From Mobula hypostoma (taxonomy: Eukaryota): a stretch of DNA of 64,000 nt. The notes below the pieces were generated by a model that was given only the letters and a program-made list of their open reading frames with translations, did not search any database and was not told the DNA's origin. Shown in pieces: positions 1 through 52,972 of this stretch. The stretch's first letter is position 1. Each line of letters begins with the position of its first letter. Both the position numbers and the translations under genes were made by a program. Where the stretch lies: assembly GCF_963921235.1 (NCBI RefSeq), contig NC_086108.1, forward strand, positions 18,476,001-18,540,000. The letters are read 5' to 3'.

Positions 1-1180
1 AAAAAACCTATTTAAGATCTCCCCCATTTCCTTTGGTTCCGCACATAGCCGACCATTCTGATCTTCAAGAGGACTAATTTTATCCCTTACAATCCTTTTC
101 CTCTTAATATACCTGTAAAAGCTCTTTGGATTATCCTTCACTTTGACTACCAAGGCAACCTCATGTCTTCTTTTAGCCCTCCTGATTTCTTTCTTAAGTA
201 CTTTCTTGCACTTCTTATACTCCTCAAGCACCTTATTTACTCTCTGCTTCTTATACATGTCATACAACTCCCTCTTCTTCTTTATCAGAGTTGTAATATC
301 CCTTGAGAACCGAGGTTCCTTATTCCTATTCCCCTTGCCTTTAATCCTGACAGGAACATACAAATTCTGCACTCTCAAAATTTCTGCTTTGAAGGCTTCC
401 CACCTACCGATCACATCCATGCCAGAGAACAACCTGTCCCAATCCACGCTTTTTAGATCCTTTCTCATTTCTTCAAATTTGGCCTTCTTCCAGTTAAGAA
501 CCTTAACCCTAGGACCAGATCTATCCTTGTCCATGATCAAGTTGAAACTAATGGTGTTATGATCACTGGAACCAAAGTGCTCCCTTATACAGACTTCTGT
601 CACTTGTCCTAACTCGTTTCCTAACAGGAGATCCAATATTGCCTCCCCTCTAGTTGGTCCCTCTATATATTGATTAGGAAACTTTCCTGAACACATTTTA
701 CAAACTCTAAACCATCTAGACCCCTAACAGTATGGGAGACCCAATCAATATATGGAAAATTAAAATCCCCTACCACCACAACTTTATGTTTCCTGCAGTT
801 GCCTGCTATCTCTCTACAGATTTGCACTTCCAATTCTCTTTGACTATTGGGCGGTCTGTAATACAATCCCACTAATGTGGCCATACCTTTCCTGTTTCTC
901 AGCTCCACCCATAAGGACTCAACAGACAAGCCCTCTAATCTGTCCTGCCTGAGCACTGCTGTAATATTTTCCCTAACAAGCAATGCCACTCCCCCACCTT
1001 TCATTCCTCTGCCTCGATCACATCTGAAACATCGGAACCCTGGAATATTAAGCTGCCAGTCCTGCCCCTCCTGTAGCCAAGTTTCACTAATTGCTACAAC
1101 GTCATAATTCCACGTGTCAATCCACGCCCTCAACTCATCCGCCTTACCCCTAGCATTGAAATATATACGCCTCAGAAGAT
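1..1180 (-). mobile_element. CR1 LINE fragment, ORF2 APE endonuclease region
   Basis: ORF 663..1133(-) has YDVVAISETWL, GGGVALLV, YYRPPN and VGDFNFP motifs; frame is disrupted and the element runs off the left edge. Confidence 0.9.
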
Positions 1181-1199
1181 TTTTACCACCACTCCCCTT

Positions 1200-2582
1200 A
1201 TTCTAAATTCCAATTGTACAGGCTTAGAGCTATCAATCACTCCTTTCATTCCCTGAATCATTCTTGCGAACCTCCTCTGAACCCTCTCCAATCCCAGGTA
1301 TCCTTTTTTAGATAAGGGACTGAAAACTGCTCACAATACTCCAAGTGAGGCTTCACCAATGCATTATAAAGCCTCAACATTACAGCCTTGCTTTTATATT
1401 CTGGTCCTCTCAAAATGGATGTTAATGTTGCATTTGCCTTCCTCACCACAGCCTCAACCTGCAAGTTAATCTTTAGGGAATCCAAGGGTCCCTTTGCACC
1501 TTGGGTTTTTGAATTTTTTACTCATTTAGAAAATAATTCTATGCTTTTGTTCCTCCTACCAAAGTGCATAACCATACATTTCCGACACTGTACTCCATCT
1601 GCCACTTCTTTTCCCAGTCTTCTAATCTAACTCCTTCTGTAGCTTCCCTGCTTCCTCAACACTACCTACCCCTCCAACTATGTTCATATCGTCTGCAAAT
1701 ATGGCCACAAAGCCACCAATTCCATCATCCAAATCATTGACATATAATGTAAAAAGAAGTGGACCCAACACAGGCCCCTATGGAACACCACCAGCATCCA
1801 ACCAGAAAAGGCTCCCTTTGTTCCCACTCTTTGCCTCCTGCCAATCAGCCAATGCTTTATCCATGCTAGAATCTTTCCTGTAATACATGGGCTGTTATCT
1901 TGTTAACTAACCTTGTCAAAGGCCTTCTGAAAATCCAAGTACACAATATCCTCCTTTATCTAAGGCAACACTCACAAACTGCTGGAGGAACTCGGCAGAT
2001 CAGGCAGCATCTATGGAAAGGAATAAACAGTTGACGTTTTGGGGCAAGACACTTCATCAGGACTCCTTTATCTTCTTTATCTATCCTGCTTGATATTTCT
2101 TCAAAGAATTTGAACACATTTGCTAGGCAAGATTTTCCCTTATGCTGACTTTGGCCTATTTTATCATGTGTCTCCAAGTACACTGAGACCTCAGCCTTAA
2201 GGATCAATTCTAACATCTTCCCAACCAGCGAGCTCAGGCTAACTGGCCTATCATTTCTGTTCTTCTGCCTTTCTCCATTCTTGAAGAGTAGAGTGACATT
2301 TGCAATTTTCCAGTCCTCCAGAATCATGCCAGAACCTAGTGATTCTTGAAGGAGCATTACCAATGCCTCCACAACCTCTTCAAATACCTCCTTCAGAACT
2401 CTGGGGTGTAGTCTATTTGATTCAGGTGACTTATCTATCTTCAGACCTTACAGCTTCTCAAGCACCTTTCCCCTAATAATAGCAAGTGCCCTCCCTTCAG
2501 CCCTTTGACACTGCCAAACATCTGGCATACTGCTAGTGTCTTCCACAGTGAAGACTGATGTAAAATGTCTGCCATTTCTTGT
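1200..2582 (-). mobile_element. Degenerate CR1 LINE, RT and 3' region
   Basis: Fragments EDWKIANVT, RPVSLSSLVGKMLE and LVKPHLEYC; many deletions. Confidence 0.85.
1962..2062 (-). mobile_element. ~100 bp PLE terminal fragment with decayed hammerhead motif, inserted in CR1
   Basis: Flanked by 11-bp TSD CTCCTTTATCT (1951-1961 and 2063-2073). Reverse complement reads AGTC-CTGATGA-AGTGTCTTGCCCC-AAAACGTC-AACTG. Confidence 0.8.
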
Positions 2583-2948
2583 CATGTTATGTTCTAAGTA
2601 AATACAACTGGGCATGGGTTTACACTAGAACATTATATTACTGAACTGCTGTTCAATCCTGAGAATGATCTCACACATCATTTCTCACTGCTAACACCTT
2701 TTGTACTCATGTAGTCTCTTTCTCAGTCATGCACAGTATTCATTTACTCTCCTTGTTGAGTCCTCGCGTTGACTTCTGACACCAGGTAAGCATCTGAGCC
2801 CCTCAAAGACATCAGCATCATTTAATGCCGTGGTTAGGCAGATTAGTAGACACACTTACATGAGTTTGAACTATTCTGTTTATGTTCGCCTTTAAACAAG
2901 TAAAAAAAAAATGTAACTTATGTTAAGGCATAATATGAATAATATGAC

Positions 2949-3176
2949 TCATAATATTGAGTGACCCCAGCTTCTGAGACTTGAATCAATGCAATCAAAG
3001 AAATTCCATCTATCAGATCGATGTACTTTAACTGCTTCTTTACAAATATGATCAGCCAACTTAGTTATATCTTCAGATTCATCAAGTAAGTAAAACTCTT
3101 TTTGCCTATAACTGCACATAACCCTCCCCCCCACCTTAACTGTTAAGTGAAGATCTAATGCCATTCTATTTTGAAG
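2949..3176 (-). pseudogene. env: Endogenous retrovirus env TM remnant (immunosuppressive domain and downstream)
   Basis: Minus strand from 3176 translates [11 protein letters not shown]...GG...DESEDITKLADHI...WNFF...SWG. LQNRxxLD is the class I retroviral ISD signature. Confidence 0.8.
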
Positions 3177-3178
3177 GA

Positions 3179-4203
3179 CCCTGTGACTAGTGATGTGCTA
3201 CAGGGATCAGTGCTGGGTCCATTGTTATTTGTCATCTATATCAATGATCTGGATGATAATGTGGTAAATTGGATCAGCAAATTTGCTGATGATACAAAGA
3301 TTGGAGGTGTAGTGGACAGTGAAGAAGGTTTTCAAAGCTTGCAGAGGGATTTGGACCAGCTGGAAAAATGGGCTGAAAGATGGTAGATGGAGTTTAATAC
3401 AGACAAGTGTGAGGTATTGCTCTTTGGAAGGACAAACCAAGGTAGAACATACAAGGTAAATGGTAGGGCACTGAGGAATGCAGTAGAACAGAGGGATCTG
3501 GGAATACAGATACAAAATTCCCTAAAAGTGGAGTCACAGGTAGATAGGGTCGTAAAGAGAACTTTTGGTACATTGGCCTTTATTAATCAAAGTATTGAGT
3601 ATAAGAGTTGCAATGTTATGATGAGGTTGTATAAGGTATTGGTGAGGCTGAATTGGAGTATTGTGTACAGTTTTGGTCACCAAATTACAGGAAAGATATT
3701 AACAAAGTTGAAGGAGTGCAGAGAAGGTTTACAAGGATGTTGCCGGGACTTGAGAAACTGAGTTACAGAGAAAGGTTGAATAGGTTAGGACTTTATTCCC
3801 TGGATCATAGAAGACAGAGGGGAAATTTGATGGAGGTATATAAAATTATGATGAGTATAGATAGAGTGAATGCAAGCAGGCTTTTTCCATTGAGGCTAGG
3901 GGAGAAAAAACCCAGAGGACGTGGGTTAAGGGTGAAGGGGGAAAAGTTTAAAGGGAACATTAGCGGGGCTTCTTCACACAGGGAGTCGTGGGAGTGTGGA
4001 ATGAGCTTCCAGATGAAGTGGTAAATGCGGGCTCACTTTTAACATTTAAGAAAAACTTGGACAGGTACATGGATGAGAGGTGTATGAAGGGATATGGTCC
4101 AGGTGCAGGTCAGTGGGACTAGGCAGAAAAATGGTTCGGCACAGCCAAGAAGGGACAAAAGGCCTGTTTCTGTGCTGTAATGTTCTATGGTTCTATGTTC
4201 TGT
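3179..4203 (+). mobile_element. 5'-truncated CR1 LINE interrupting env
   Basis: [17 protein letters not shown] and MEFNTDKC motifs; 3' tail TTCTATGGTTCTATGTTCT. Confidence 0.92.
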
Positions 4204-5800: not shown

Positions 5801-8800
5801 CATTAATTAACAATGGCTTCACCTTCACTCCCTTGCTCATAGCTGTCAATCTTAATTGTTTCATCACTGCTATCTCCACTTGAGTCACTAGAGGCCGCAG
5901 TAGATTCCATGTCATGTCCGTTTGTAAATCTCTGGAGTTCAGATGGTGTCACTGTCTCAGGGACTGTCTGGTGTGAGCTGTATTTCCTCAGGTGGAACTT
6001 CAGAAGTAGGTGATTCCCAGGGGCAGAGCACCAGTAGTGCCAGCATCACTAGCAGCATCACTCGCAGCATCACTTGCAGGACTGCCACCTGAAGTCATGG
6101 CTGCAGTTTTTTACATTGTTTCAATTCACTTCAAAACTCCATACAATTCACTTCAATTGAATAACTGTGTTGTTCTTTCACCAATTCAGTTAATGCAAAG
6201 ATTTGCTCTTTAGACATTATATTGTCTCTATCTGCTGTTTTTGTAATTTATCACAAGTTCTGTATTGCTTTCAATTAGTAAAAGGCTTTACTCATCCAGT
6301 TAACTCTTTCAATCGCTCACAAATTCAATCCACCTGACCACGTGGTCTTACCTCTAAATCATGAACAGCCACTTCCTTTCCCGCAGGCATTTTCTGGATC
6401 TTAATAAACATAACATTGTTGGTATATTTCATTGGGATTTTTCATTAACGGGACAGAGGTCTATTACTTGAAAGGAGAAACTAAAGATTGTGCCAAGAAT
6501 AAAACAGCTATTTCTATACCCAAAAATGAATTCCATTCAAATCCATAGCTAATAATTAACCAATTAGAAAGTACTAAGACCAGACTGCAGTAAAAAATAA
6601 CAAAAGAGAAAACACTTATTCACTTAATGCAGAACAAAGAAGTTTCCAGAATTTAGCTTTGTATAACAAGAAACACATTAAATTGTTACATAGAACATAA
6701 AATAGTACAGCACAGTACAGGCCCTTCGGCCCACAATGTTGTGCTGACTCTTAAACCCTGCCTCCCATATAACCCCCACCTTAAATTCCTCCATATACCT
6801 GTCTAGTAGTCCCTTAAATTTCCCTAGTGTATCTGCTTCCATCACTGACTCAGGCAGTGCATTCCACGCACCAACCACTCTCTGAGTAAAAAGCCTTCCT
6901 CTAATATCCCACCTGAACTTCCCACCCCTTACCTTAAAGCCTTGTCCTCTTGTATTGAGCAGTGGTGCCCTGGGGAAGAGGTGCTGGCTGTCCACTCTAT
7001 CTATTCCTCTTAATATCTTGTATACCTCTATCATGTCTCCCCTCATCCTCCTTCTCTCCAGAGAGTAAAGTCCTAGCTCCCTTAATATCTGATAATAATG
7101 ATCATAATCTCTCTAAACCAGGCAGCATCCTGGAAAATCTCTTCTGTACCCTTTCCAATGCTTCCACATCCTTCCAATAGTGAGGCAACCAGAACTGGAC
7201 ACAATACTCCAAGTGTGTCCTCACCAGGGTTTTATAGAGCTGCATCATTACCCCGCGACTCTTAAACTCCATCCCTCGACTTACGAAAGCTAACACCCCA
7301 TAAGCTTTCTTAACTACCCTATCTACCTGTGAGGCAACTTTCAGGGATCTGTGGACATGTAACCCCAGATCCCTCTGCTCCTCCACACTACCAAGTCTCC
7401 TGCCATTTACTTTGTTCTCTGCCTTGGAGTTAGTCCTTCCAAAGTGTACCACCTCACACTTCTCTAGTTTGAACTCCATCTGCCAAATCTCAGCCCAGTT
7501 CTGCATCCTATCAATGTCTCCCTGCAATCTTCGACAATCCTCTACCCTATCCACAACACCACCAACCTTTGTGTAGTCTGCAAACTTGTCATCCTACCCT
7601 TCTACCACCACATACAGGTCGTTATTAAAAATTACAAAAAGCAGAGGTCCCAGAACGATCCTTGTGGGACACCACTAGTCATAACCCTCCAATCCAATGT
7701 ACTCCCTCCACCATCACACTCTGCCTTCTGCAGGCAAGCCAATTCTGAATTCACCTGGCCAAACCCCCCTAGATCCCATGCCTTCTGACTTTCTGAATAA
7801 GCTTACTGTGTGGAACCTTGTCAAATGCCTTACTAAAATCCATGTGGATCACATCCACTGCACTACGCTCATCTATATGCCTGGTCACCTCCTCAAAGAA
7901 CTCTATCAGGCTTGTTAGACACGATCTGCCCTTCACAAAGCTATGCTGACTGCCCCTGATCAGACCATGATTCTCTAAATGCCCACAGATCCTATCTCTG
8001 AGAATCTTTTCCAACAGCTTTCCCACCACAGACGTAAGGCTCACTGATCTATAATTACTCGGACTATCCCTACTACCTTTTTTGAACAAGGGGACAACAT
8101 TCGCCTACTTCCAATCCTCTGGTACCATTCCCGTGGACAAGGAGGACATAAAGATCCTAGCCAGAGGCTCAACAATCTCTTCCCTCGCCTCGTGGAGCAG
8201 CCTGGGGAATATTCCATCAGTCCCCAGGGACTTATCTGTCCTAATGTATTTTAACAACTCCAACACCTCCTCTCCCTTGATATCAACATGCTCCAGAACA
8301 TCAACCTCACTCATATTGTCCTCACCGTCATCAAGTTCCCTCTCATTGGTGAATACCGAAGAGAAGTATTCACTGAGGACCTTGCTGCACAGTCTCCAGG
8401 CACATCTTCCCACCTTTATCTCTAATCGGTCCTATCTTCACTCCTGTCATCCTTTTGTTCTTCACATAATTGAAGAATGCCTCGGGGTTTTCCTTTACCC
8501 TATTCGCCAAGGCCCCCTTCTTGCTCTCCTCAGCCCCTTCTTAAGCTCTTTTCTAGCTACCCTATATTCCTCAATAGAGCCATCTGATCCTTGCTTCCTA
8601 AGCCTCATGTATGCTGCCTTCTTCCACCTAACTAGATTCTCCACCTCACTCATGGTTCCTTCGCCCTACCATTCTTTATCTTCCTCACCGGGACAAATTT
8701 ATCCCTAACATCCTGCAAGAGATCCCCAAACATTGACCACATGTCCATAGTACATTTCCCTGCAAAAACATCATCCCAATTCACACCCGCAAGTTCTAGC

Positions 8801-9182
8801 CTTATAGCCTCATAATTTGCCCTTCCCCAATTAAAAATTTTTCTGTCCTCTCTGATTCTATCCTTTTCCATGATAATGTTAAAGGCCAGGGAGCAGTGGT
8901 CACTGTCCCCCAGATGCTCACCCACTGAGAGATCTGTGACCTGACCCGGTTCATTACCTAATACTAGATCTAGTATGGCATTCCCCCTTGTTGGCCTGTC
9001 AACATACTGTGACAGGAATCCGTCCTGGACACACCTAACAAAATCTGCCCCATCTAAACCATTGGAACTAATTAGGTGCCAATCAATATTAGGGAAGTTA
9101 AAGTCACACATGATAACAACCCTACACACATCAAAGTTGCTGGTGAACGCAGCAGGCCAGGCAGGATCTCTAGGAAGAGGTA

Positions 9183-9224
9183 CAGTTGACGTTTCGGGCC
9201 GAGACCCTTCGTCAGGACTAACTG
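9183..9224 (-). ncRNA. Minimal type I hammerhead ribozyme motif (PLE inverted arm)
   Basis: Reverse complement CAGTTAGTC-CTGACGA-A-GGG(TCTCGG)CCC-GAAACGTC-AACTG; core intact, stem I altered. Confidence 0.75.
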
Positions 9225-9875
9225 AAGGAAGAGCTAGTCAGAGATTTGAAAGTGGGAGGGGGAGGGGGAGATCCAAAATGATAGGAGAAGACAGGAAGGG
9301 GAGGGATGGAGCCAAGAGTTGGACAGGTGATTGGCAAAAGGGATATGAGAGGAACATGGGACAGGAGGCCCAGGGAGAAAGAAAAGGGGGAGGGGTGGAA
9401 AAACCAGCAGGATCTCCCAGTGGCCATACATTTTAATTCCACATCCCATTCCCATTCTGATATGTCTATCCACGGCCTCCTCTACTGTAAGGATGAAGCC
9501 ACACTCAGGTTGGAGGAACAACACCTTATATTCCATCTGGGTAGCCTTTAACCTGATGGCATGAACATTGACTTCTCTAACTTCCGCTAATGCCCCACCT
9601 CCCCCTCGTACCCCATCCATTATTTATTTATATACACACATTCTTTCTCTCTCTCCTTTTTCTCCCTCTGTCCCTCTCACTATACCCCTGCCCATCCTCT
9701 GGGTTTTCCCCACCTCCCCCTATTCCTTCTCCCTGGGCCTCTTGTCCCATGCTCCTCTCATATCCCTTTTGACAATCACCTGTCCAGCTCTTGGCTCCAT
9801 CCCTCCCCCTCCTGTCTTCTCCTATCATTTTGGATCTCCCCCTCCCCCTTTCAAATCTCTTACTAGCTCTTCCTT

Positions 9876-9917
9876 CAGTTAGTCCTGACGAAGGGTCTCG
9901 GCCCAAAACGTCGACTG
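9876..9917 (+). ncRNA. Hammerhead motif, probably inactivated (GAAA changed to AAAA)
   Basis: CAGTTAGTC-CTGACGA-AGGGTCTCGGCCC-AAAACGTC-GACTG. Confidence 0.7.
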
Positions 9918-10426
9918 TATCTCTTCCTAGAGATGCTGGCTGGCCTGCTGTGTTCACCAGCAACTTTGATGTGTGTTGCTTGAATTTCCAGTGTCTGCAG
10001 AATTCCTCGTGTTTGCATGATAACAACCCTGTTATTTTTGCACCTTCCCAAAATCTGCCTCCCAATCTGCTCCTCGGTATCTCTGCTGTTACCAGGGGGC
10101 CTATAGAATACTTCCAATAGAGTAACTGCTCCCTTCTTGTTCCTGACTTCTACCCATACTGACTCAAAAGAGGATCCTGTCACATTACCCACCCTTTCTG
10201 TAGCTGTAATAGTATCCCTGACCAGTAATGTCACCCCTCCTCCCCTTCCACCCCCCATCCCTTTTAAAGCACTGAAATCCAGGAATATTGAGAATCCATT
10301 CCTGCCCTGGTGCCAGCCAAGTCTCTGCAATGGCCACTACATCATAATTCCATGTATGTGTCCAAGCACTCAGTTCATCACCTTTGTTCCTGATGCTTCT
10401 TGCATTGAAGTACATGTACTTTAGCC

Positions 10427-12254: not shown

Positions 12255-12690
12255 GTAGGAGACTGAAGGGTGTTTTTACAGAGATGCATAAAATCATGTG
12301 GGATATAGACATGGTGAGTGCACTCAGTTGCTCAGTTTTTTTTACACAGGTCTGGGGAAATCAAGAACAAGAGGGCAAAGCTTTGAGGTGAGCGGAGAGA
12401 GATTTATTTGGAACTTGAAAAGCAAATTTTTAACACAAGGTGTGGTCCATATGTAGAATGCACTGCCAGAAGAAGGGTTGAGCCAGATACAATAAGTACA
12501 TTCGAAAACATTCAGACAGGTACATGAATAGGAAAGGCTTAAAGCAGGGTTTCTCAACCTTTTTTTATGCTATGGATCCCTATCATTAGCCAAGGGGTCT
12601 GTGGACCCCAGGTTGGGAACCCCAGGCTTAAAGGAACAAGGGTCAGGTTGGCATTAGCTTGGATGACTGTCTTGGATGGTTGTCTCCCAG
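12255..12690 (+). mobile_element. Old CR1 3' fragment
   Basis: Similar to other CR1 3' ends; hosts a MITE. Confidence 0.7.
12545..12625 (+). mobile_element. ~80 bp hAT-type MITE
   Basis: TIR CAGGGTTTCTCAACCT / AGGTTGGGAACCCCAG; exact 8-bp TSD GCTTAAAG (12537-12544 and 12626-12633). Confidence 0.88.
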
Positions 12691-12744
12691 CAGTGGGAGA
12701 CCAAGAGTTATTACTTCATGTTGACATCCTTTCAATGAGATCAC

Positions 12745-13575
12745 AACCTGAAACTGGCACTTATCCTTGGAAGCGGAACAAGTGCTACACATGCTCTTAC
12801 ACTTCCTCCCACACTACCATTCAGGGCCCCAGACAGTCCTTCCAGGTGAGGTGACACTTCACCTGTGAGTCAGCTGGGGTGATATACTGCATCCGGTGCT
12901 CCCGATATGGCCTTCTATATATTGGCGAGACCCGACACAGACTGGGAGATCGTTTTGCTGAACACCTACGCTCTGTCGGCCAGGGAAAGCAGGATCTCCC
13001 AGTGGCCACACATTTTAATTCCACATCCCATTCCCATTCTGATATGTCTATCCATAGCCTCCTCTACCGTAAAGATGAAGCCACACTCAGGTTGGAGGAA
13101 CAACACCTTATATTCCATCTGGGTAGCCTCCAACCTGATGGCATGAACATTGACTTCTCAAACTTCTGCTAATACCTCACCTCCCCCCTCGTACCCCATC
13201 CGTTATTCATTTATATACATACATTCTTTCCCTCTCTCTCCTTTTTCTCCCTCTGTCCCTCTGACTATACCCCTTGCCCATCCTCTGGGTTTTTTTCCCC
13301 CTCTCCCCCTTTTCCTTCTCCCTGGGCCTCCTGTCCCATGATCCTCTCATATCCCTTTTGCCAATCACCTGTCTAGCTCTTGGCTCCATCCCTCCCCCTC
13401 CTGTCTTCTCCTATCATTTTGGATCTCCCCCTCCCCCTCCCACTTTCAAATCTCTTACTAGCTCTTCCTTCAGTTAGTCCTGACGAAGGGTCTCGGCCCG
13501 AAACGTCGACTGTACCTCTTCCTAGAGATGCTGCCTGGCCTGCTGCGTTCACCAGCAACTTTGATGTGTGTTGCT
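12745..13575 (+). mobile_element. Penelope-like element 3' part (GIY-YIG endonuclease and terminal repeat)
   Basis: ORF 12879..13172 IYCIRCSR..LYIGETRHRL..RFAEH is a GIY-YIG with Cys/His insert. Confidence 0.92.
13471..13512 (+). ncRNA. Minimal type I hammerhead ribozyme motif, intact
   Basis: AGTC-CTGACGA-A-GGG(TCTCGG)CCC-GAA-ACGT-C^GACT; stem I AGTC/GACT, stem II GGG/CCC, predicted GUC cleavage triplet. Confidence 0.85.
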
Positions 13576-13662
13576 GAAATATTACCTGTTTTCTCTCTCT
13601 GCCAACATTGCCTAACTTGCTGAAAGTTTCCAGTTTTTCTCAGTTTTCTCTCTTCATTACTT

Positions 13663-14814: not shown

Positions 14815-15610
14815 AAGCAGCTGCTCAGGTTGACTCTGTGGTTAAGAAGGCGTATAGTGTATTGGCCTTCATCAATCGTGGAATTGAATTTAGGAGCCGA
14901 GAGGTAATGTTGCTATATAGGACCCTGGTCAGACCCCATATGGAGTACTGTGCTCAGATCTGGTCGCCTCACTATAGGAAGGATGTGGAAACCGTAGAAA
15001 GGGTGCAGAGGAGATTTACAAGGATGTTGCCTGGATTGGGAAGCATGCCCTATCAGGATAGGTTGAGTGAACTTGGCCTTTTCTTCTTGGAGCGATGGAG
15101 GAGAGGTGACCTGATACAGGTGTATAAGAGGCATTGATCGTGTGGATAGTCAGAGGCTTTTTCCCAAGGGCTGAAATGGTTGCCACAAGAGGACACAGGT
15201 TTAAGTTGCTAGGGAGTAGGTACAGAGGAGATGTCAGGGGTAAGTTTTTTACTCAGAGAGTGGTGAGTGCATGGAATGGGCTGCCAGCAATGGTGGTGGA
15301 GGTGGATACGATAGGGTCTTTTAAGAGACTTTTGGATAGATACATGGAGCTTAGAAAAATAGAGGGCTATAGGTAAGCCCAGTAATTTCTAAGGTAGAAT
15401 ATTCGGCACAGCTTTGTGGGCCGAAGGGCCTGTATTGTGCTGTAGGTTTTCTATGTTCCAGCAACACACATCAAAGTTGCTGGTGAACGCAGCAGGCCAG
15501 GCAGCATCTCTAGGAAGAGGTACAGTTGACGTTTCAGGCCGAGACCCTTCGTCCAGCAGCATCTGCAGAATTCCTGTTGTTTGAGGTTTTCTATGTTTCT
15601 GTGTTTCTAT
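14815..15610 (+). mobile_element. CR1 3' fragment
   Basis: LVRPHMEYC, VQRRFTRMLPG and FFTQRVV motifs; TTCTATG tail. Confidence 0.9.
15458..15583. mobile_element. 126-bp PLE mini-insertion (inverted arm plus sense tip)
   Basis: 14-bp TSD AGGTTTTCTATGTT (15444-15457 and 15584-15597). The antisense terminus with a truncated hammerhead is joined to the sense end CAGCATCTGCAGAATTCCTGTTGTTT. Confidence 0.85.
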
Positions 15611-19359: not shown

Positions 19360-22040
19360 ATCAGAATCAGAATCAGGTTTAATATCACCAACATATGTTG
19401 TGAAATATGTTGTCTTTGCTACAGCAGTACATGCAATACATAATAACAGGGAAAAATGTGAATTACAGTAAGTACACCCTATCCTCTTTATATGCGAGGG
19501 ATACGTTCCTCTAAGTTGACGCACAATGTGACATCGCATAATGTCAATAATTATTTAAATAGAGAGGGCTTCAGAGGACTTCCTAAATATGTTTTATCTG
19601 TAATTTATTCACATTTTTATACCAATATGACACAAAAGCAGTACTACAAGACAATATTTATATTATATTTAATCAATTTAAGGTAATATTAAATGTAATA
19701 AATCATAGAAAGTTAACATCCTCTGGTGTACAGTACTCACCAACAGTGGCAGGTGTGTTCGCTCTGGGAGATGAGTGGTTGTTGTGGTGTCGGGCAGCTT
19801 TACACGGATAAGGTGGATGGTTGTGGTCGTCAGGATCATATCAAGCACAGCAAGGGGTGAAGGAAGACTCACAGAACTCTTAGAACTGCCAGCAGCAGAA
19901 GATTACAGTGATTTGCGTAAAAATGGTGAGGATTGTTTGCTTGGCAGCATTTTGTTTTTCAGCATAAATTTGCTTGTAGGGAAGAAGGGTTGACGGCAGA
20001 GAACGACTGAAATGCTGACTCCGTTCAAAACTTGGGTCCATGTCCATCGCCATTTGTGCCAAGTGTTCCGACTTCCACCATTCCCTCACTGTTGGCAAAC
20101 TCCTGGGATTTTTAAAATCTTCTGTTGCTTGCAGCATCTGTGAGATAGTTTGCGGTAAAAAAAAAATACGCACGCCTTGAATGTGGATTACACCTTGGTC
20201 GAATGGTTGAATCAGCGATGTTGTGTTAAGCGGCAGGAAACGCACTGTAATGTTAGGATGAATGCTGTCCACATGTTTAGGATGGACTGGCGCATTGTCA
20301 AGCAACAAAAGAACTTTAAAGGCAAGATTCTGTTGCTGGCAGTAGCGTCCCAGAGCTGTGTTACGTTCAGCAGTTTATAATTTCCAACTTTTTTCCAAGT
20401 GTTAAAGCGGTTCTCTGCCGCTCGGCTGACGGCCCAAAACATGACATCGGACGCTTAGGAGGCATAGTTAAATATTTCAAGCACAAAATCACTGCACCAT
20501 AGGTAAAACCAACAGAAGTTTAAGATCGCGCATCCACACCTTGCCAAAACCAATGCGAGAGTGGTGGGAGAGAGATTGTGAGGCGCACACCTGACTTGTA
20601 TTGGCGGGAAAGCGGTGCTTCTCATCCCAACAGAGAGACTGTGAAGTGTGCGCACCTGACTTGTATTGGCGGGAAGGCAGTGCTCCTCGCATAACTGTGA
20701 GTTTTGGACGCATGTAACGAGACGTTGATAGAAATTGGTTCCTCGCGTGACTGTGAATCCGCATAGTCTGAAGATGTATATAACGAGGATAGGGTGTATA
20801 TAGAAATGTATTAAATAGTTAAACTAAATAAGTACTGCAAAAATAAAAATAAAAAACAGTGAGGTGGTGTTTGTGAGTTCAATGTCCATTCAGAAATCGG
20901 ATGGCAGAGGGGAAGAAGCTGTTCCTGAATCGTTGAGTGTGTGCCTTCAGGTACATCTGTAGAAATTGCAAGTGTCTTTGGTGACATACCATATTTCCTC
21001 AAACTCCTTATAGCCACTGTCATGTCTTCTTTGCAGCTGCATCAGTACATCGGATCCAAGATAGATCCTCAGAGATATTGACACCCAGGAACTTGAAATT
21101 GCTCACCTTTCCACTTCTGATCCCTCTATGAGGACAGGAGTGTGTTCCCTCGTCCTACCCTTTTTGAAGTCCACAATCAGTTCTTTGGTCTTACTGACAC
21201 TGAATGCAAGGCTGTTGCTGCAACACCACTCCACTAGCTGGTATATCTCACTCTGAAGTTGGTCACCATCACCATCTGAAATTGGTTGTATTGTCAACAA
21301 ATTTATAGATGGCATTTGAGCTATGCCTATTCCCACAGTCATGGGTGAAGAGAGAGTAGAGCAGTAGGCTAAGCACACATCCTTGTGGTGCGCCAGTGTT
21401 GATTGTCAGCGGGGTGGAGATGTTATTTCCGATCAGCACAGATTGTGGTCTCCCAGTTAGGAAGCTGAGGATCCAGTTGCAGAGGGAGGTACAGAGACAC
21501 AGATTCTGGAGCTTTACAATCAGAACTATGGTGTTAAACACTGAGCTGTAGTCAATAAACAGCATCCTGACATAGGTATTTGTATTGTCCAGATTATCCA
21601 AGATCACATGAAGAACCAATCGGATCACATCAACTGCAAAGTTATTGTGATGATAGACAAATTGCAGTGGATCCAGGTCCTTGCTGAGACAGGAGTTAAC
21701 TCTAGCCATAACCAACTTCTCAAAGCATTTCATCACCATAGATCTGAGTGTTAGTGGATGATAGTCATTATGACAGCTCACCCTGCTCTTCTTGGGCATT
21801 TGTATGATTGTTGCCCTTTTGAATCAGGTGGGAACTTCTGACCGTAGCAGTGGGAGATTGAAAAAGTGTTTGAACACCCCCGCCAGTTGGTTGGCACAGG
21901 TTTGCAGACCCTTACCAGGTACTCCACTGTTACCTTACAAGGGTTCACCCTCTTGAAAAACAGCTTGACATTGGCCTCCGAGACAGAGACCACAGGGTCA
22001 TCAGGTACTGCAGGGATCCTCACAGCTGTAGATTTATTCT
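19360..22040 (-). mobile_element. Rex1/Babar-type LINE (RT to 3' tail) interrupted by Tigger
   Basis: ORF 21269..21799: [36 protein letters not shown]; (TCAGAA)n tail at about 19361. Confidence 0.88.
19475..20796 (-). mobile_element. Deleted pogo/Tigger-like DNA transposon
   Basis: 19-bp TIR CACCCTATCCTC(T/G)TTATAT; TA TSD; DDE remnant LLDNAPVHP..FLPLNTTSLIQPFDQGVI (19880-20308). Confidence 0.92.
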
Positions 22041-31000: not shown

Positions 31001-32849
31001 TTTGCTTGACCCATACTCTATTGCTGGCACATTCAAACAACGGCCGCTCCTCTTGACTCTAACTGGACGCTCCACTTGACCTTAACTAGATGCGGCACTT
31101 GACCCTAACTGGATGCTTCGCTTGATCCTAACTGGATGCTTCGCTTGACCCATACTCTATTACTGGCACAGTCAAACAACGGCCGCTCCACTTGATCGTA
31201 ATGTCCGCTCCACTTCACCCCAACTGGATGCTCCGCATGCCCCTAACTGGCCATTCCGCTTGACTCAAACTGGACGCTCCAGCTTGACTGTAACTGGATG
31301 CTCCACCTGACCCTAATTGGATGGTTAACTTGACCCTAACTGGATGCTCCATTTGCCCCTAACTGGATGCTTCGCTTGACCCTAACTGTCCTCTCCGCTT
31401 GATCCTAAATGGATGCTCCGATTGACTGTAACTGGATGCTCCATCTGACCCTAACTGGATGCACCACTTGACCCAAACTGGAAGCTTCGCTTGACCCTAC
31501 CTGGACGCACTGGTTGACGCTAGTGGCTGATCCATTTGACCCTAACTTGACACTCCGCTTGACCCAAAAAGGACGGTTCACTTGACCCTAACTGGACGCA
31601 CCACTTGACCCTAACTGGATGCTCCGCTTGACCATAACTAGATGCTTCGCGTGACCCATATTCTCTTACTGGCACAATCAAACAATGGCCGCTCCATTTG
31701 ACACTAACTGGATGCTCTGCTTGACCCAAAATGGATGCTTCGCTTGACCCTAACTAGACGCTCCGCTTGACCCTAACTGGACGCACAGCTTCACCCTAAT
31801 GGGTGCTCTGTTTGACCCTAACTGGACACTCCGCTTGACCCTAACTGGACACTTTGCTTGACCCTAACTGGATGCACCGGTTCACCCTAATGGCTGCTCC
31901 ATTTGACCCTACATGGACAATTTGCTTGACCCATACTCTATTACTGGCACAAGCAAACAACAGCTGCTCCACTTGACCTTAACTGGACACTCTGCTTGAC
32001 CCTAACTGGACGCTTCACTTGACCCTAACTGGGCACACCACTTGACCCTAAATGAACACTTTGCTTGACCCTAACTGGATGCTTTGCTTGACCAATACTC
32101 TTTTACTGGCACATTAAAACAATGGCTGCTCCATTCACCCTAACTGGACACTCTACTTGACCCTAACTGGATGTTCCACTTGCCCCTAACTGGATGCTCC
32201 GCGTGCCCCTAACTGGTCATTCCGCTTGACCCTAACTGGACGCTCCAACTTGACTGTAACTGGATGCTCCACCTGACCCTAACTGGATGGTTAACTTGAC
32301 CCTAACTGGACGCTCCACTTGCCCCAAACGGGACGCTTCGCTTGACCCTAAATGACCTCTCCACTTGAACCTAACTGGATGCTGCGCTTGACCCTAACTG
32401 GACACTCCAATTGACCCAAACCGGACACTTCACTTGACCCTAACTGGATGCTCCACTTGACCCTAACGGGATGCTCCGCCTGACACTAACTTGAATCTTT
32501 GTTGACCCATACTCTATTACTGGCACATTCAAACAACGGCCGCTCCACTTGATCGTAGTGTCCGCTCCACTTAACCCTAACTGGACGCTCCGCTTGCCCC
32601 TAACTGGACGCTCCAGCTTGACTGTAACTAGATGCTCCACCTGACCCTAACTGGATGGTTAACTTGACCCGAACTGGATGCTCCACTTGCCCCTAACTGG
32701 ATGCTTCGCATGACCCTATCTGGCCTGTTCACTTGACCCTAACTGGATGCTCTGCTTGACACTAACTGGTTGCTTTGCTTGACCCATATTCTATGACTGG
32801 CACATTCAGACAACGGCCACTCCACTTGATCCAAACTGGACGCTCCACT

Positions 32850-33532
32850 TATATATTGGCGAGACCCGACGCAGACTGGGAGACAGCTTTGTTGAACACC
32901 TATGCTCTGTCCGCCAGAGAAAGTAGGATCTCCCAGTGGCCACACATTTTAATTCCACATCCCATTCCCATTCTGACATGTCTATCCACGGCCTCCTCTA
33001 CTGTAAAGATGAAGCCACACTCAGGTTGGAGGAACAACACCTTATATTCCGTCTGGGTAGCTTCCAACCTGATGGCATGAACATCGACTTCTCTAACTTC
33101 CGCTAATGCCCCACCTCCCCCTTGTACCCCATCTGTTACTTATTTTTATACACACATTCTTTCTCTCACTCTCCTTTTTCTCCCTCTGTCCCTCTGAACA
33201 TACCCCTTGCCCATCCTCTGGGTTCCCCCCCCACCATCTTTCTTCCCGGACCTCCTGTCCCATGATCCTCTCGTATCCCTTTTGCCAATCACCTGTCCAG
33301 TTCTTGGCTCCATCCCTCCCCCTCCTGTCTTCTCCTATCATTTTGGATCTCCCCCTCCCCCTCCAACTTTCAAATCTCTTACTCACTCTTCCTTCAGTTA
33401 GTCCTGACGAAGGGTCTCGGCCTGAAACGTCGACTGCACCTCTTCCTAGAGATGCTGCCTGGCCTGCTGCGTTCACCAGCAACTTTGATGTGTGTTGCTT
33501 GAATTTCCAGCATCAGCAGAATTCCTGTTGTT
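32850..33532 (+). mobile_element. PLE 3' fragment inserted in the satellite
   Basis: YIGET..RLEEQHLIFRLGS coding remnant and the same terminus as 9406-10015. Confidence 0.92.
33395..33436 (+). ncRNA. Minimal hammerhead motif (stem II variant)
   Basis: AGTC-CTGACGA-AGGGTCTCGGCCT-GAAACGTC-GACTG. Confidence 0.78.
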
Positions 33533-40321: not shown

Positions 40322-40573
40322 CGAGGAATTCTGCAGATGCTGGAAATTCAAGCAACACACATCATAGTTGCTGGTGAACGCAGCAGGCCTCCTGTCCCAT
40401 GATCCTCTCATATCCCTTTTGCCAATCACCTGTCCAGCTCTTGGCTCCGTCCCTCCCCCTCCCACTTTTAAATCTCTTACTAGCTCTTCCTTCAGTTAGT
40501 CCTGACGAAGGGTCTCGGCCCGAAACGTCGACTGTACCTCTTCCTAGAGATGCTGCCTGGCCTGCTGCATTCA
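40322..40573 (-). mobile_element. PLE mini-insertion with inverted arms
   Basis: 15-bp TSD CCAAATCATCAGGCA (40307-40321 and 40574-40588). Orientation switches near 40386. Confidence 0.9.
40493..40534 (+). ncRNA. Minimal type I hammerhead ribozyme motif, intact
   Basis: Identical to 13471-13512. Confidence 0.85.
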
Positions 40574-40588
40574 CCAAATCATCAGGCA

Positions 40589-45200: not shown

Positions 45201-45496
45201 TTAGTTTTTGCTTTAGAGAATGTAGTTCAGAGTGGAGCAGTGATTCAATAAATCTTCCTCAGCACTACCTCCTAAATCCACAAATGAAGATGAAGTGAAG
45301 CAGATGATTCATCTGGATAGTATGTTGACTCTGGTGTCAGGATCAGGGATGGCTTGGCTCAGGCCCATAGCATTCTCAAGGACAAGGGTGAGCAGCTAAA
45401 AGTCTTGGTACATATTGGCACCAATGACAAAGGTAGACAAGGTGCGGAGGTCCCGAAGAGGGATTTTAGGGAGGTCCAGGTAGTAATCTCTGGATT

Positions 45497-46492
45497 ACTT
45501 CGGCCCTCACCCCATCCTCCCACCACCACAACAGGAACAGAGTTCCCCTCGTCCTCACCTACCACCCCACCAGCCTCCGGATCCAGCACATTATCCTCTG
45601 CAACTTCCATCAATTTCAACAGGACCCCACCACTAAGCACATCTTTCCCTCTCCACCCCTCTCTGCTTTCCGCAGGGATTGGTCCCTCCGCGACTCCCTG
45701 ATCCACACGTCCCTCCGCACGGATCTCCCACCAGTACTTATCCCTATAAGCGTAAGTGCTACACCTGTCCCTACACCTCCTCTCTTGCCACCATTCAGGG
45801 CCCCAAACAGTCCTTCCAGGTGAGGCAACACTTCACTTGTGAGTCTGTTGGGGTCATCTATTGCATCCGGTGCTCCCGATGCGGCCTCCTCTACATCGGT
45901 GAAACTCGACACAGATTGGGGGACCACTTCGTCGAGCACCTCCGCTCCATCCACCACAACAGACAGGATCTCCCGGTAGCCACCCACTTCAACTCTGCTT
46001 CACATTCCTGTTCGGATATGTCCATACATGGCCTCCTCTACTACCATGGTGAGGCTAAACTCAGGTTGGAGGAGCAACACCTCATATACCATCTAGGTAG
46101 TCTCCAGCTCCTTGGTATGAACATAGAATTCTCCAACTTCCAGTAATTCCCTCCCCCTCCCTTCCCCTATCCCACTCTGTCCCCTCCCCCAGCTGCCTAT
46201 CACCTCCCTCATGGTTCTGTCTCCTTCTACTACCCGTTGTGTTTTCCCCTATTCTTTCTTCACCTTTCCTGCCTATCATCTTCCTGCTTCCCCTCCCCCA
46301 CCCCTTTAACTTTCCCCTTACTGGTTTTTCACCTGGAACCTACCAGCCTTCTCCTTCCCACCCTCCCCCACCTTCTTTATAGGGCCTCTGCCCCTTCCCT
46401 CTTCAGTCCTGATGAAGGGTTCCAGCCCGAAACGTTGACTGATCATTTCCATGGATGCTGCCCGACCTGCTGAGTTCCTCCAGCGTGTTGTG
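45497..46492 (+). mobile_element. Penelope-like element, second subfamily
   Basis: ORF 45679..46146 GVIYCIRCSRCGLLYIGET; 15-bp TSD AGTAATCTCTGGATT (45482-45496 and 46493-46507). Confidence 0.93.
46403..46442 (+). ncRNA. Minimal hammerhead motif, second subfamily
   Basis: TCAGTC-CTGATGA-A-GGG(TTCCAG)CCC-GAA-ACGT-T-GACTGA; 6-bp stem I, different loop II, GUU triplet. Confidence 0.82.
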
Positions 46493-46938
46493 AGTAATCT
46501 CTGGATTGCTCCCTGCGCCCTGTGCCAGTGAATGTAAGAATGGGATGATTTGGCAGGTGAATGCATGGCTGAGGACACGGTGCAGGGGGCAGGGGTTCAG
46601 ATTTATGGATCATGAGATCTTTCTCGGGAAGGTAGAAACCTCTAAAAAAGGATCAGCTACACCTGAACCTGAGGGGTTCCAGTATCCTTTTGGGCAGGTT
46701 TGGCTAGCGTTGTCCAGGTGGGTTTAATCTAATTTGGCAGTGGAATGGGAGCTAGAGTGATCATGCTGAAGATGAGATAGTTGGTTTAAAAGCAAAGGCA
46801 ATGTGTAATGAGACTTCTAGCAATAAGAGGCCAATGATAGGGAAAAATTGCCATCAACAAGAGTATGCAGTGTAAAAGGTGGACAAAATCAAAAAGGGCA
46901 AGTACAGGGCTGAAGGTGTTATGTTTGAATGTGTGCAT

Positions 46939-52068: not shown

Positions 52069-52972
52069 CTATAAATGTAGTTGATCTATATCCCACTGCA
52101 GTCTTTGATAGTCCTTAACACTGCCCACAGCTCCACTAATCTCAGTATCATCCTCAAACTTGCTCATCCACCCATCTACATTTTCATCCAAATCATTGAT
52201 CACTTTCAACTTGATCCTGCCCACTTTCAATGACTGGTGTATAATGACACCCAGGTCTCGTTGCACCTCCCCTTTTCCTGATCGGCCACCATTCAGATAA
52301 TAATCTGTTTTCCTATTTTTGCCACCAAAGTGGAGAACTTCACATTTATCCACATTAAATTGCATCTGCCATGAATTTGCCCACTCACCCAACCTATACA
52401 AGTCACCCTGCATCCTCTTAGCATCCTCCTCACAGCTAACACTGCCGCCCAGCTTCGTGTCATCCGCAAACTTGGAGATGCTGCATTTAATTCCCTCATC
52501 CAAGTCATTAATATATATTGTAAACAACTGGGGTTCCAGCACTGAACCTTGCGGTACCCCACGAGTCACTGCCTGCCATTCTGAAAAGGTCCCGTTTATC
52601 CCCACTCTTTGCTTCCTGTCTGCTAACCAATTCTCTATCCACATCAATACCTTACCCCCAATACCATGTGCTTTAAGTTTGCACACTAATCTCCTGTGTG
52701 GGACCTTGTCAAAAGCCTTTTGAAAATCCAAATATACCACATCCACTGGTTCTCCCCTATCCACTCTACTAGTTACATTCTCAAAAAATTCTATGAGATT
52801 CGTCAGACATGATTTTTCTTTCACAAATCCATGCTGACTTTGTCCGATGATTTCACCGCTTTCCAAATGTGCTGTTATCACATCTTTGATAACTGACTCC
52901 AGCAGTTTCCCCACCACCGACATTAGGCTAACCGGTCTATAATTCCCCGGTTTCTCTCTCCCTCCTTTTTTA
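52069..52972 (-). mobile_element. CR1 RT internal fragment with an open frame, fused to an older CR1 piece
   Basis: 303-aa [32 protein letters not shown], then a second INDLDE..KFEDDTE segment. Confidence 0.9.

What the first reader, a model, noticed from the sequence alone, without database searches (positions are those of the whole stretch)
13471..13512. Family of minimal hammerhead ribozymes in the termini of Penelope-like elements
Seen in sequence: the PLE termini carry stem I-CUGAYGA-A-GGG(loop6)CCC-GAA-ACGU-H-stem I. Intact cores lie at 13471-13512, 40493-40534, 33395-33436, 46403-46442 and 9183-9224(-). Damaged copies lie at 9876-9917, about 2028-2064(-) and about 15523-15553(-). The two subfamilies differ in loop II and N7 but keep the core and helices, as expected under structural conservation. 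Established: PLEs are known to encode minimal type I hammerheads. Inference: stem III is only the palindrome ACGU, too short to fold alone, so cleavage would need a dimer. The extra A after A9 is a non-canonical insertion. Whether this lineage's variant has been described cannot be judged here.
Basis: partly seen in the sequence, partly recalled or inferred. Interest (0 to 1): 0.8.

Follow-up and report, generated by a model that had tools for sequence, protein, structure and literature searches.

The report
Penelope-element minimal hammerhead ribozyme relics
The repeated motif is the small "minimal hammerhead" RNA-cutting motif that Penelope-like jumping genes carry near their tail ends. It is a known kind of element, present here in tens of thousands of copies, and it is predicted, not shown, to cut the element's RNA.

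Summary
The motif stem I-CUGAYGA-A-GGG(loop)CCC-GAAACGU-H-stem I occurs 4 times exactly and 7 times with up to 3 mismatches in the window. None is expected by chance. An eighth, decayed copy lies at about 2028-2064(-).

Every copy lies 68 nt before the 3' end of a 5'-truncated fragment of one retroelement family. Natural full copies elsewhere in the genome are 3,512-bp units with a 1,043-codon RT plus GIY-YIG frame. Two direct motifs 3,512-3,514 bp apart flank that frame.

All sequence hallmarks of the published minimal hammerheads of Penelope-like elements are met, including the extra base after A9 (Cervera & de la Pena 2014).

- The genome holds 23,498 exact CCC-form motifs and 60,635 CCU-form motifs.
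- Across subfamilies the motif is a conserved island: 81% identity, against chance level in the 3' UTR.
- The helices show no covariation.
- Rfam finds nothing.
- Cleavage and the need for a dimer remain untested.

Earlier agents of this scan reached the same reading on other DNA of this genome. Verdict: a new member of a known kind, of low interest. The one twist is that the dominant lineage, which holds the copies with open frames, carries G10.1-U11.1.

The parts
12754..13575 (+). 5'-truncated copy of the Penelope-like element (unit positions 2703-3512 of a 3,512-bp natural copy)
   Evidence: BLAST of a natural full unit (L066) against the window, 90.3% over 823 bp; self-BLAST
12855..13172 (+). 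Remnant of the GIY-YIG endonuclease domain, the C-terminal end of the element's frame, preceded by a cysteine linker in the frame 12543-12854
   Evidence: Pfam PF01541, E 7.5e-06, 26.6 bits, above the cut-off of 22.6; translation
13475..13512 (+). Minimal type I hammerhead motif. Helix I 13475-13479 with 13508-13512; core C3-A9 13480-13486; extra A 13487; helix II 13488-13491 with 13496-13499; loop 13492-13495; G12-A14 13500-13502; palindrome ACGU 13503-13506; C17 13507. Predicted cut between 13507 and 13508.
   Evidence: Sequence; pattern counts; pairing counts
13513..13575 (+). Tail of the element between the motif and the 3' end. It holds a block (GATGCTGCC..CCTGCTG) that is also conserved between subfamilies.
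   Evidence: Alignment of the two subfamilies; end of homology at 13575
9124..9390 (-). Inverted 5'-truncated copy (unit 3241-3508), the left arm of a head-to-head pair. Motif at 9183-9224(-) with an intact core and G1.1 changed to A.
9406..9980 (+). 5'-truncated copy (unit 2937-3512), the right arm of the head-to-head pair. Motif at 9876-9917 with G12 changed to A. Homology runs on past 9980 into the start of the next unit.
15460..15553 (-). 94-bp copy (unit 3419-3512) truncated inside the motif; it lacks C3, U4 and the 5' strand of helix I
32849..33532 (+). 5'-truncated copy (unit 2864-3512) followed by a 33-nt extension equal to unit positions 1-33. Motif at 33395-33436 in the CCU (U11.1) form.
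40351..40576 (.). Head-to-head pair: a tail-only inverted piece at 40351-40389(-) (unit 3474-3512) and a copy at 40388-40576(+) (unit 3263-3491, 75.5% to L066). Exact motif at 40493-40534(+).
45497..46492 (+). 996-bp 5'-truncated copy of a second subfamily (77.6% to unit 2458-3138), flanked by a 15-bp direct repeat at 45482-45496 and 46493-46507. Weak GIY-YIG hit in the frame 45637-46146. Motif at 46400-46442 (N7 = U, loop UUCCAG, U17).
1965..2064 (-). Decayed copy of motif plus tail (G10.2 to T, G12 to A, G1.1 to A), with a tail like that of the second subfamily

Best explanation
These are minimal type I hammerhead motifs carried in the terminal repeat of one very abundant family of Penelope-like retroelements, and they are predicted, not shown, to cut the element's RNA after GUC.

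Shown here:
- A natural full copy is a 3,512-bp unit with a 1,043-codon RT plus GIY-YIG frame.
- The motif lies about 300 nt after the stop codon and 68 nt before the unit's end.
- In tandem or repeat-flanked copies, two motifs one unit apart flank the frame.
- All eight window copies are dead, 5'-truncated tail fragments of 94 to 996 bp. Two pairs lie head to head.

Inferred:
- In a transcript of a full copy the two motifs would pair through the palindrome ACGU to build the missing helix III, or would be helped by the element's own protein.
- They would cut after C17 and release a unit-length RNA with 5'-OH and 2',3'-cyclic phosphate ends and a 5' leader of about 138 nt before the first conserved Met.
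- Genomic copies run 68 to about 100 nt past the cut site. The RNA that is reverse transcribed would therefore be uncut at its 3' motif, or re-ligated into a circle.
For: Motif and chance:
- 4 exact and 7 near-exact matches in the window, against 0 in 100 shuffles.
- In the genome, 23,498 CCC-form and 60,635 CCU-form matches, against 0 for the reversed patterns.
- 26,041 copies were found through flank anchors alone.

Element:
- GIY-YIG above the Pfam cut-off just upstream in the window.
- The frame in L034 has RVT_1 at E 2.7e-06.
- Natural copies L066 and L068 have a 1,043-codon open frame with RVT_1 (E 2.1e-05) and GIY-YIG (E 0.0024) in that order, flanked by two direct motifs 3,512 and 3,514 bp apart.

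Unbiased sample:
- Of 29 loci picked by RT similarity, 28 carry the motif downstream.

Conservation:
- Between the two subfamilies the 3' UTR is at chance level (0.533 against 0.531 +/- 0.014 for shuffles).
- The motif is 34 of 42 identical.
- Motif plus tail scores 0.679 against 0.466 +/- 0.032, maximum 0.546.
- Within the family, the non-CpG minor-base fraction is 0.013 in the motif (0.007 in the core), against 0.033 upstream and 0.043 downstream.

Literature:
- All four hallmarks of Cervera & de la Pena 2014 are present: a base between 9 and 10.1, G10.1-C11.1, palindromic 15.2-16.2, and a short helix I of 4-5 bp. So are their 'dual motifs on opposite strands 100-700 bp apart' (main text).
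Against: - There is no direct evidence of cleavage. No run is on record as RNA and all runs are contigs, which cannot show RNA ends.
- The helices do not covary. 93.3% of cells pair, the same as in shuffles (93.3 +/- 0.3). Two pairs have a change on both sides, against 0.6 expected, reached by 54 of 500 shuffles.
- Rfam gives no hammerhead match, at gathering score or at E up to 10.
- The fold of the motif region is no more stable than shuffles (z -0.57).
- The monomer's lowest-energy fold pairs core bases G5-G8 with 15.2-17.
- The catalytic dimer scores -17.9 kcal/mol, against -28.2 for two free monomers and -36.5 for the best dimer.
- The most abundant lineage, which includes the open-frame copies L066 and L068, has U at 11.1. 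That weakens the otherwise near-invariant G10.1-C11.1 pair.
- For the related lizard element PAc, hammerhead mutants did not affect insertion in vitro, cleavage needed the protein, and no RNA-seq ends were seen at the site (PMC11167929, passages).
Confidence: 0.87

Rival explanations
1. The motif is kept as a folded RNA or protein-binding element of the 3' region, for example as part of what the RT recognises together with the conserved tail, and not for efficient self-cleavage. Its hammerhead form would then be an inherited scaffold with little or no catalysis in this lineage.
For: - The dominant lineage, which includes open-frame copies, carries G10.1-U11.1.
- The tail block downstream is conserved along with the motif.
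- The energy model disfavours the active dimer.
- PAc hammerhead mutants insert normally in vitro.
- Published in vitro activity of these minimal motifs is low even as dimers.
Against: - Every catalytic core base is kept in all sampled lineages. Core non-CpG variation is the lowest of all segments, at 0.007.
- CpGs at G8, 15.2/16.2 and C17/G1.1 survive in the source lineages although CpG decays fast in dead copies.
- Plant, fungal and protist Penelope-like elements carry fully active hammerheads.
- PAc RNA is cut at the site when the protein is added, and C3/G8 mutants behave as expected for a hammerhead.
Confidence: 0.1
2. The copies are retrozyme-type non-autonomous elements: short non-coding hammerhead units that spread through small circular RNAs, rather than fragments of the autonomous element.
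For: - Many very short copies and tight inverted pairs exist in the genome, with motifs 35-84 bp apart in the listing.
- A 2026 preprint links animal retrozymes to the terminal repeats of Penelope-like elements (abstract and passages).
Against: - No two same-strand motifs in the window lie closer than 3.6 kb.
- The longer copies carry GIY-YIG coding remnants and are colinear with the 3' part of the full unit. They share a 3' end and have variable 5' ends, the signature of 5' truncation.
- The close pairs are inverted, not tandem.
Confidence: 0.02
3. The motif is a chance resemblance that hitch-hikes in a repeat.
For: - No covariation.
- No Rfam match.
- Unremarkable folding energy.
Against: - All conserved core positions sit in the right order, with helices I and II in register.
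- The location is the one published for this element class.
- The motif is a conservation island while the neighbouring 3' UTR has diverged to chance level.
Confidence: 0.01

Closest known systems
Minimal hammerheads (min-HHR) in the terminal repeats of metazoan Penelope-like elements, including fish Xena, Poseidon and Neptune (Cervera & de la Pena 2014, PMC4209133; main text read)
   Same: - Type I layout with no helix III hairpin.
- Palindromic 15.2-16.2 (here ACGU).
- An unpaired base between A9 and G10.1.
- G10.1-C11.1 in the window's exact copies.
- A short helix I of 5 bp.
- Location in the terminal repeat of an RT plus GIY-YIG element.
- Thousands of dispersed single motifs from truncated copies.
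- Inverted pairs 100-700 bp apart.
   Different: - Helix II is short here (4 bp with a U-G closing pair), against 6-8 bp in their trematode and Drosophila examples.
- Copy number is far higher (at least 84,000 exact motifs, against about 4,000 in coelacanth and 9,000 in Xenopus).
- The motifs found with the two descriptors used here form one sequence family without covarying sub-families.
- The dominant lineage has U11.1.
PAc, a Poseidon-type element of Anolis carolinensis, and its hammerhead (Frangieh et al. 2024, PMC11167929; passages only)
   Same: - A repeat-frame-repeat unit with a hammerhead in the repeat.
- Insertions end at a defined place, with a short 'tail' beyond it.
- Cleavage is not needed to explain the 3' ends of insertions.
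   Different: In PAc the frame starts at helix II and the cut lies 26 bp after the start codon. Here the first conserved Met lies about 138 nt after the predicted cut (4 of 4 long frames). Protein assistance is untested here.
Canonical type I hammerheads of newt satellite 2 and Schistosoma Sm-alpha, which act as double hammerheads (Forster et al. 1988, as cited; not read)
   Same: Helix III is too weak in the monomer, so two motifs would build it together.
   Different: Those motifs keep a 1-2 bp helix III with a loop, have loop-loop tertiary contacts, and sit in short tandem repeats. Here there is no loop III at all, and partner motifs lie 3.5 kb apart or on other RNAs.
Viroid hammerhead with an extra base after A9 (De la Pena & Flores 2001, cited; not read. 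The viroid's name, CChMVd, is recalled.)
   Same: One extra unpaired base between A9 and G10.1.
   Different: It is a type III hammerhead of a plant viroid with a full helix III, and has no link to retroelements.

Membership tests
PLE minimal hammerhead (Cervera & de la Pena 2014) | Catalytic core C3 U4 G5 A6 N7 G8 A9 ... G12 A13 A14 A15.1 ... U16.1 H17, in this order | tested here: met
   Exact in 4 window copies, and in a fifth that differs only at 11.1. Core columns are invariant in 48 distinct copies, although the regex that picked those copies required the core.
PLE minimal hammerhead (Cervera & de la Pena 2014) | Type I topology: helix I is formed by the flanks and helix II is closed by a loop | tested here: met
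   Helix I is 5 bp, with 89.2% of cells paired. Helix II is 4 bp, with 98.4% paired. Sliding the partner strand drops pairing to 12-45%.
PLE minimal hammerhead (Cervera & de la Pena 2014) | No helix III hairpin; palindromic positions 15.2-16.2 | tested here: met
   GAA-ACGU-C, with 15.2-16.2 = CG.
PLE minimal hammerhead (Cervera & de la Pena 2014) | One unpaired base between A9 and G10.1 | tested here: met
   A at 13487, invariant in alignment A2. The alternative register that pairs this A is less stable: -5.5 against -9.5 kcal/mol for CCC, and -6.3 against -7.7 for CCU.
PLE minimal hammerhead (Cervera & de la Pena 2014) | G10.1-C11.1 closing pair | tested here: inconclusive
   Met in the copies at 13480, 40502, 9189(-) and 46409. 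Replaced by G-U at 33404 and in most of the family: 60,635 CCU against 23,498 CCC motifs, and 26 of 28 RT-selected copies.
PLE minimal hammerhead (Cervera & de la Pena 2014) | Lies in the terminal repeat of an element whose single frame encodes RT followed by GIY-YIG | tested here: met
   Both Pfam hits on the full frame are below Pfam's own cut-offs (24.8 against 29.6 bits; 18.6 against 22.6). The window's GIY-YIG remnant is above its cut-off.
PLE minimal hammerhead (Cervera & de la Pena 2014) | Families with covariation and compensatory changes in the helices | tested here: inconclusive
   No excess over shuffles. A search for other helix II sequences returned decayed members of the same family (3,533 hits against 356 for the control).
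PLE minimal hammerhead (Cervera & de la Pena 2014) | Self-cleavage after H17, as a dimer or with helper factors | not testable with these tools
   No RNA reads are available. The energy model neither shows nor excludes it.
Rfam Hammerhead_1 (RF00163; accession recalled) and the other Rfam hammerhead models | A score at or above the family's gathering threshold | tested here: not met
   0 matches in the window at gathering score. No hammerhead match at E up to 10 on 13400-13580. This is expected if the models require helix III, which is my inference.
Non-LTR retrozymes | Short non-coding units in head-to-tail tandem, each with a type I hammerhead | tested here: not met
   Same-strand motifs in the window are at least 3.6 kb apart. 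The copies are colinear with the coding element.

The most novel reading that the evidence does not exclude
The lineage that expanded most has swapped the near-universal G10.1-C11.1 pair for G10.1-U11.1 and kept every other CpG of the motif. It holds 60,635 exact CCU motifs against 23,498 CCC, 26 of 28 RT-selected copies, and the open 1,043-codon frames of L066 and L068. All diverged subfamilies keep CCC, so CCU looks derived. This is a natural experiment. Either the minimal hammerhead tolerates a wobble at the A9/G10.1 metal site, or efficient self-cleavage is dispensable for, or even slows, retrotransposition of Penelope-like elements.
Probability: 0.25. Interest if true: 0.4.

Novelty: new member of a known kind. 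Interest (0 to 1): 0.15.

Why it matters
The finding is ordinary as biology. Minimal hammerheads in the terminal repeats of Penelope-like elements have been in print since 2014, and this scan has already noted them elsewhere in this genome. The finding has three modest uses.

- Annotation. At least 84,000 ribozyme-like motifs in this genome are invisible to Rfam.
- Element biology. The family looks recently active. Open frames of up to 1,058 codons occur among the 149 matches scored out of 41,135 candidates. It would therefore suit tests of what the hammerhead does for these elements.
- A built-in comparison. The CCC and CCU lineages offer a ready-made contrast for cleavage assays.

Tried and rejected
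- **Rfam.** The gathering-score scan of the window gave 0 hits. The permissive scan of 13400-13580 gave only three chance matches to unrelated families.
- **RNA evidence.** No RNA holder is listed. All 23 runs are Logan contigs and none is on record as RNA. Contigs of X1, X3, X9 and X13 cover the stretch but cannot show RNA ends, strand or expression. The second read-laying run was not used.
- **A mis-set pattern.** One search used a gap of 40-44 nt, where the true spacing is 45. It therefore returned only the 373 copies with deletions. One search corrected this.
- **Covariation.** There is no excess over shuffles.
- **Other hammerhead families in the genome.** The pattern with 10.2 not G returned decayed members of the same family.
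- **Thermodynamic support.** The motif region scores z -0.57 and the tail z -1.53. Cofolding does not produce the double hammerhead.
- **Full-length copy in the window.** None was found. The RVT_1 frames at 21269-21823(-), 52069-52983(-), 53959-54498(+) and 61919-63292(-) did not match the natural Penelope-like unit.
- **Papers.** Lunse et al. 2017 is not held, so I know it only through a review's passages. A search for Penelope + hammerhead ribozyme + shark found one paper, where 'shark' refers to the motif's shape. A search on G10.1/C11.1 mutations gave nothing usable on G-U.
- **Clade.** The element's clade (Poseidon, Neptune or other) was not determined. I ran no homology search or tree.

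Full report
**Observation**

The stretch 13471-13512 reads CAGTTAGTC-CTGACGA-A-GGGTCTCGGCCC-GAAACGTC-GACTG. The pattern CTGAYGAAGGG-N4-8-CCCGAAACGT matches 4 times in the window: 9189(-), 13480(+), 40502(+) and 46409(+). None was found in 100 dinucleotide-preserving shuffles. With up to 3 mismatches there are 7 matches, which adds 9885(+), 15529(-) and 33404(+), again with none expected. Self-BLAST and an 8-way alignment add a decayed copy at about 2028-2064(-).

Some details need refining.
- The copy at 9183-9224(-) has G1.1 changed to A.
- The copy at 33395-33436 has U at 11.1.
- The copy at 9876-9917 has G12 changed to A.
- The copy at 15523-15553(-) is not mutated. It is truncated inside the motif.

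**What the motif sits in**

Each motif lies in the same repeat, which ends 68 nt after C17, at 13575 in the reference copy. Upstream of the 13480 copy, the frame 12855-13172 is a GIY-YIG domain (Pfam E 7.5e-06, 26.6 bits against a cut-off of 22.6). A cysteine linker precedes it. Longer copies elsewhere in the genome continue upstream into a reverse transcriptase.

I searched the genome with a 255-residue RT piece. That gave 41,135 first-look candidates, of which 149 were scored. All 149 had E below 1e-140, and their open frames reach 1,058 codons. Four long-frame copies were fetched, with these layouts.
- L066 has a 485-bp partial unit, then a full 3,512-bp unit with a 1,043-codon open frame, then a 34-nt extension. 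Its two direct motifs lie 3,512 bp apart.
- L068 is a head-to-tail tandem with motifs 3,514 bp apart.
- L067 keeps the downstream motif only.
- L065 has an open frame, but both of its motifs are damaged.

The L066 frame hits RVT_1 (E 2.1e-05) and GIY-YIG (E 0.0024), in that order. Both scores are below Pfam's own cut-offs. One frame with RT followed by GIY-YIG, flanked by direct repeats, is the defining layout of Penelope-like elements (established knowledge).

Mapped on the L066 unit, the window holds only 3'-terminal fragments of 94 to 996 bp. Two pairs lie head to head, at 9124-9390(-)/9406-9980(+) and at 40351-40389(-)/40388-40576(+). The second-subfamily copy at 45497-46492 is flanked by a 15-bp direct repeat.

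**Abundance**

The genome is 3.48 Gb. It holds 23,498 exact CCC-form motifs and 60,635 exact CCU-form motifs. The reversed-pattern controls gave 0. Flank anchors that say nothing about the motif find 26,041 copies with the exact 45-nt spacing.

**Is the motif conserved beyond its surroundings?**

Between the two window subfamilies, the 3' UTR from the stop codon to the motif aligns at 0.533 identity. Shuffled sequence gives the same value, 0.531 +/- 0.014. The motif itself is 34 of 42 identical. Motif plus tail scores 0.679, against 0.466 +/- 0.032 for shuffles (maximum 0.546).

In a sample chosen by RT similarity, and so blind to the motif, 28 of 29 loci carry the downstream motif. Over 29 copies that cover at least 140 of 156 nt, the non-CpG minor-base fractions are as follows.

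| Segment | Non-CpG minor-base fraction |
|---|---|
| Upstream flank | 0.033 |
| Motif | 0.013 |
| Catalytic core | 0.007 |
| Tail | 0.043 |

In contigs of four coded runs, the variants inside the motif that reach a 10% share are 13484 C>T, 13495 G>A, 13499 C>T, 13500 G>A, 13505 G>A and 13511 T>A. The first five are CpG transitions. Many contigs match only 13477-13512 and diverge on both sides of it. That test is not met, so the motif passes.

**Results against the reading**

- Covariation is absent. On 48 distinct copies, 93.3% of cells pair, the same as in shuffles. Two pairs have a change on both sides, a count reached by 54 of 500 shuffles. The helices vary only on one side: U-G/C-G at 2.5-1.5, G-C/G-U at 10.1-11.1, and U-G/U-A at 10.4-11.4.
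- A search for motifs with a different helix II found 3,533 hits against 356 for the control. Nearly all of the 100 listed rows are decayed members of the same family. With these descriptors the genome therefore shows one motif sequence family.
- Rfam finds no hammerhead.
- The fold is no more stable than shuffles (z -0.57). The lowest-energy monomer pairs G5-G8 with 15.2-17.
- The double-hammerhead dimer scores -17.9 kcal/mol for CCC and -12.9 for CCU. Two free monomers score -28.2 and -24.4.
- No RNA run was usable.

**Comparison with what is known**

Cervera & de la Pena 2014 (main text read) describe minimal hammerheads in the terminal repeats of all Penelope-like elements then known. They found thousands of dispersed copies in fish, coelacanth and frog. 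Their hallmarks are:
- a conserved base between 9 and 10.1;
- G10.1-C11.1;
- palindromic 15.2-16.2;
- a helix I of 4-5 bp;
- pairs on opposite strands 100-700 bp apart;
- no activity as monomers and low activity as dimers.

All the sequence hallmarks are present here. The 'extra A' is therefore the rule for this class.

A review (passages) cites Lunse et al. for cleavage as dimers. I could not read that paper. Frangieh et al. 2024 (passages) report three things for a lizard element: cleavage needs the element's protein, hammerhead mutants still insert in vitro, and reverse transcription starts inside the RNA. The last point fits the insertions here, which run 68 nt past the cut site and often carry a further 32-38 nt of the next unit.

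Unlike that element, the first conserved Met here lies about 138 nt after the predicted cut (4 of 4 long frames).

Earlier agents of this scan reached the same reading on other DNA of this genome. My conclusions rest on my own calls.

**The one twist**

The CCU form has U at 11.1.
- It is 2.6 times as common as CCC.
- It holds 26 of 28 RT-selected copies.
- It is the form in the open-frame copies L066 and L068.
- By my hand count of the two listings, 77 of the first 100 CCU rows are one identical 27-mer, against 43 of 100 CCC rows. That suggests a younger burst.
- All diverged subfamilies in the sample keep CCC, so CCU looks derived.

Whether the wobble weakens catalysis is untested. That the G10.1-C11.1 pair matters for activity is recalled knowledge, not taken from any call here.

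**Verdict**

The family is real and far beyond chance. It is a new member of a known kind. All window copies are dead tail fragments. Interest is low.

Noticed in passing
Genome-wide; window 33395-33436; loci L066, L068: The U11.1 (CCU) form of the motif outnumbers the canonical CCC form, 60,635 to 23,498. It is the form found next to open 1,043-codon frames. It is linked to GACTGCACC just downstream, whereas CCC copies mostly have GACTGTACC.
   Followed up: partly
window 45321-45701 and 46494-46727 (+): The second-subfamily copy (45497-46492, 15-bp direct repeat) splits an older open frame whose two halves both read ..VISGLL.. at the junction. The frame contains HIGTND, which I recall as typical of SGNH/GDSL-type esterase domains of some LINE-like elements. 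I ran no family scan on it.
   Followed up: no
window 9124-9980 and 40351-40576; many places: Head-to-head (fold-back) pairs of 5'-truncated copies joined at their truncated ends. In the genome listing, some pairs have their motifs only 35-84 bp apart on opposite strands. The same arrangement is mentioned for trematodes in Cervera & de la Pena 2014.
   Followed up: partly
window 33500-33532; L066, L068, L065: Many insertions continue 32-38 nt past the unit's end into the first bases of the next unit (a 'tail'). Others, such as 13575, stop at the unit's end. There are therefore two preferred 3' ends.
   Followed up: partly
window 13528-13553 and 13549-13580: A block in the tail (GATGCTGCC..CCTGCTG) is conserved between subfamilies. 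A 6-bp hairpin (AGCAAC/GUUGCU) spans the unit's 3' end. The fold of the tail is not significantly stable (z -1.53). It may relate to where reverse transcription starts, but that is speculation.
   Followed up: partly
window 13482-13485 with 13504-13507: G5-A6-C7-G8 is complementary to C15.2-G16.2-U16.1-C17. The predicted lowest-energy monomer is therefore an inactive hairpin that buries the core and the cut site.
   Followed up: partly
window 663-1202(-), 8650-9237(-), 21269-21823(-), 52069-52983(-), 53959-54498(+), 61919-63292(-): Frames of other retroelements, with Exo_endo_phos endonuclease and RVT_1 domains (LINE-like). They did not match the natural Penelope-like unit in BLAST.
   Followed up: no
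runs X1-X23 (coded): Contigs of runs labelled as 11 different coded organisms (A-K, 9 studies) hold 22-57% of the sampled words of 12900-13600. Near-identical copies of this element family therefore occur in several organisms' data.
   Followed up: partly
genome: Among the 149 matches scored, of 41,135 first-look candidates, many copies keep open frames of 700-1,058 codons at 85-87% identity to a decayed query. The family may still be active, or was active recently.
   Followed up: partly
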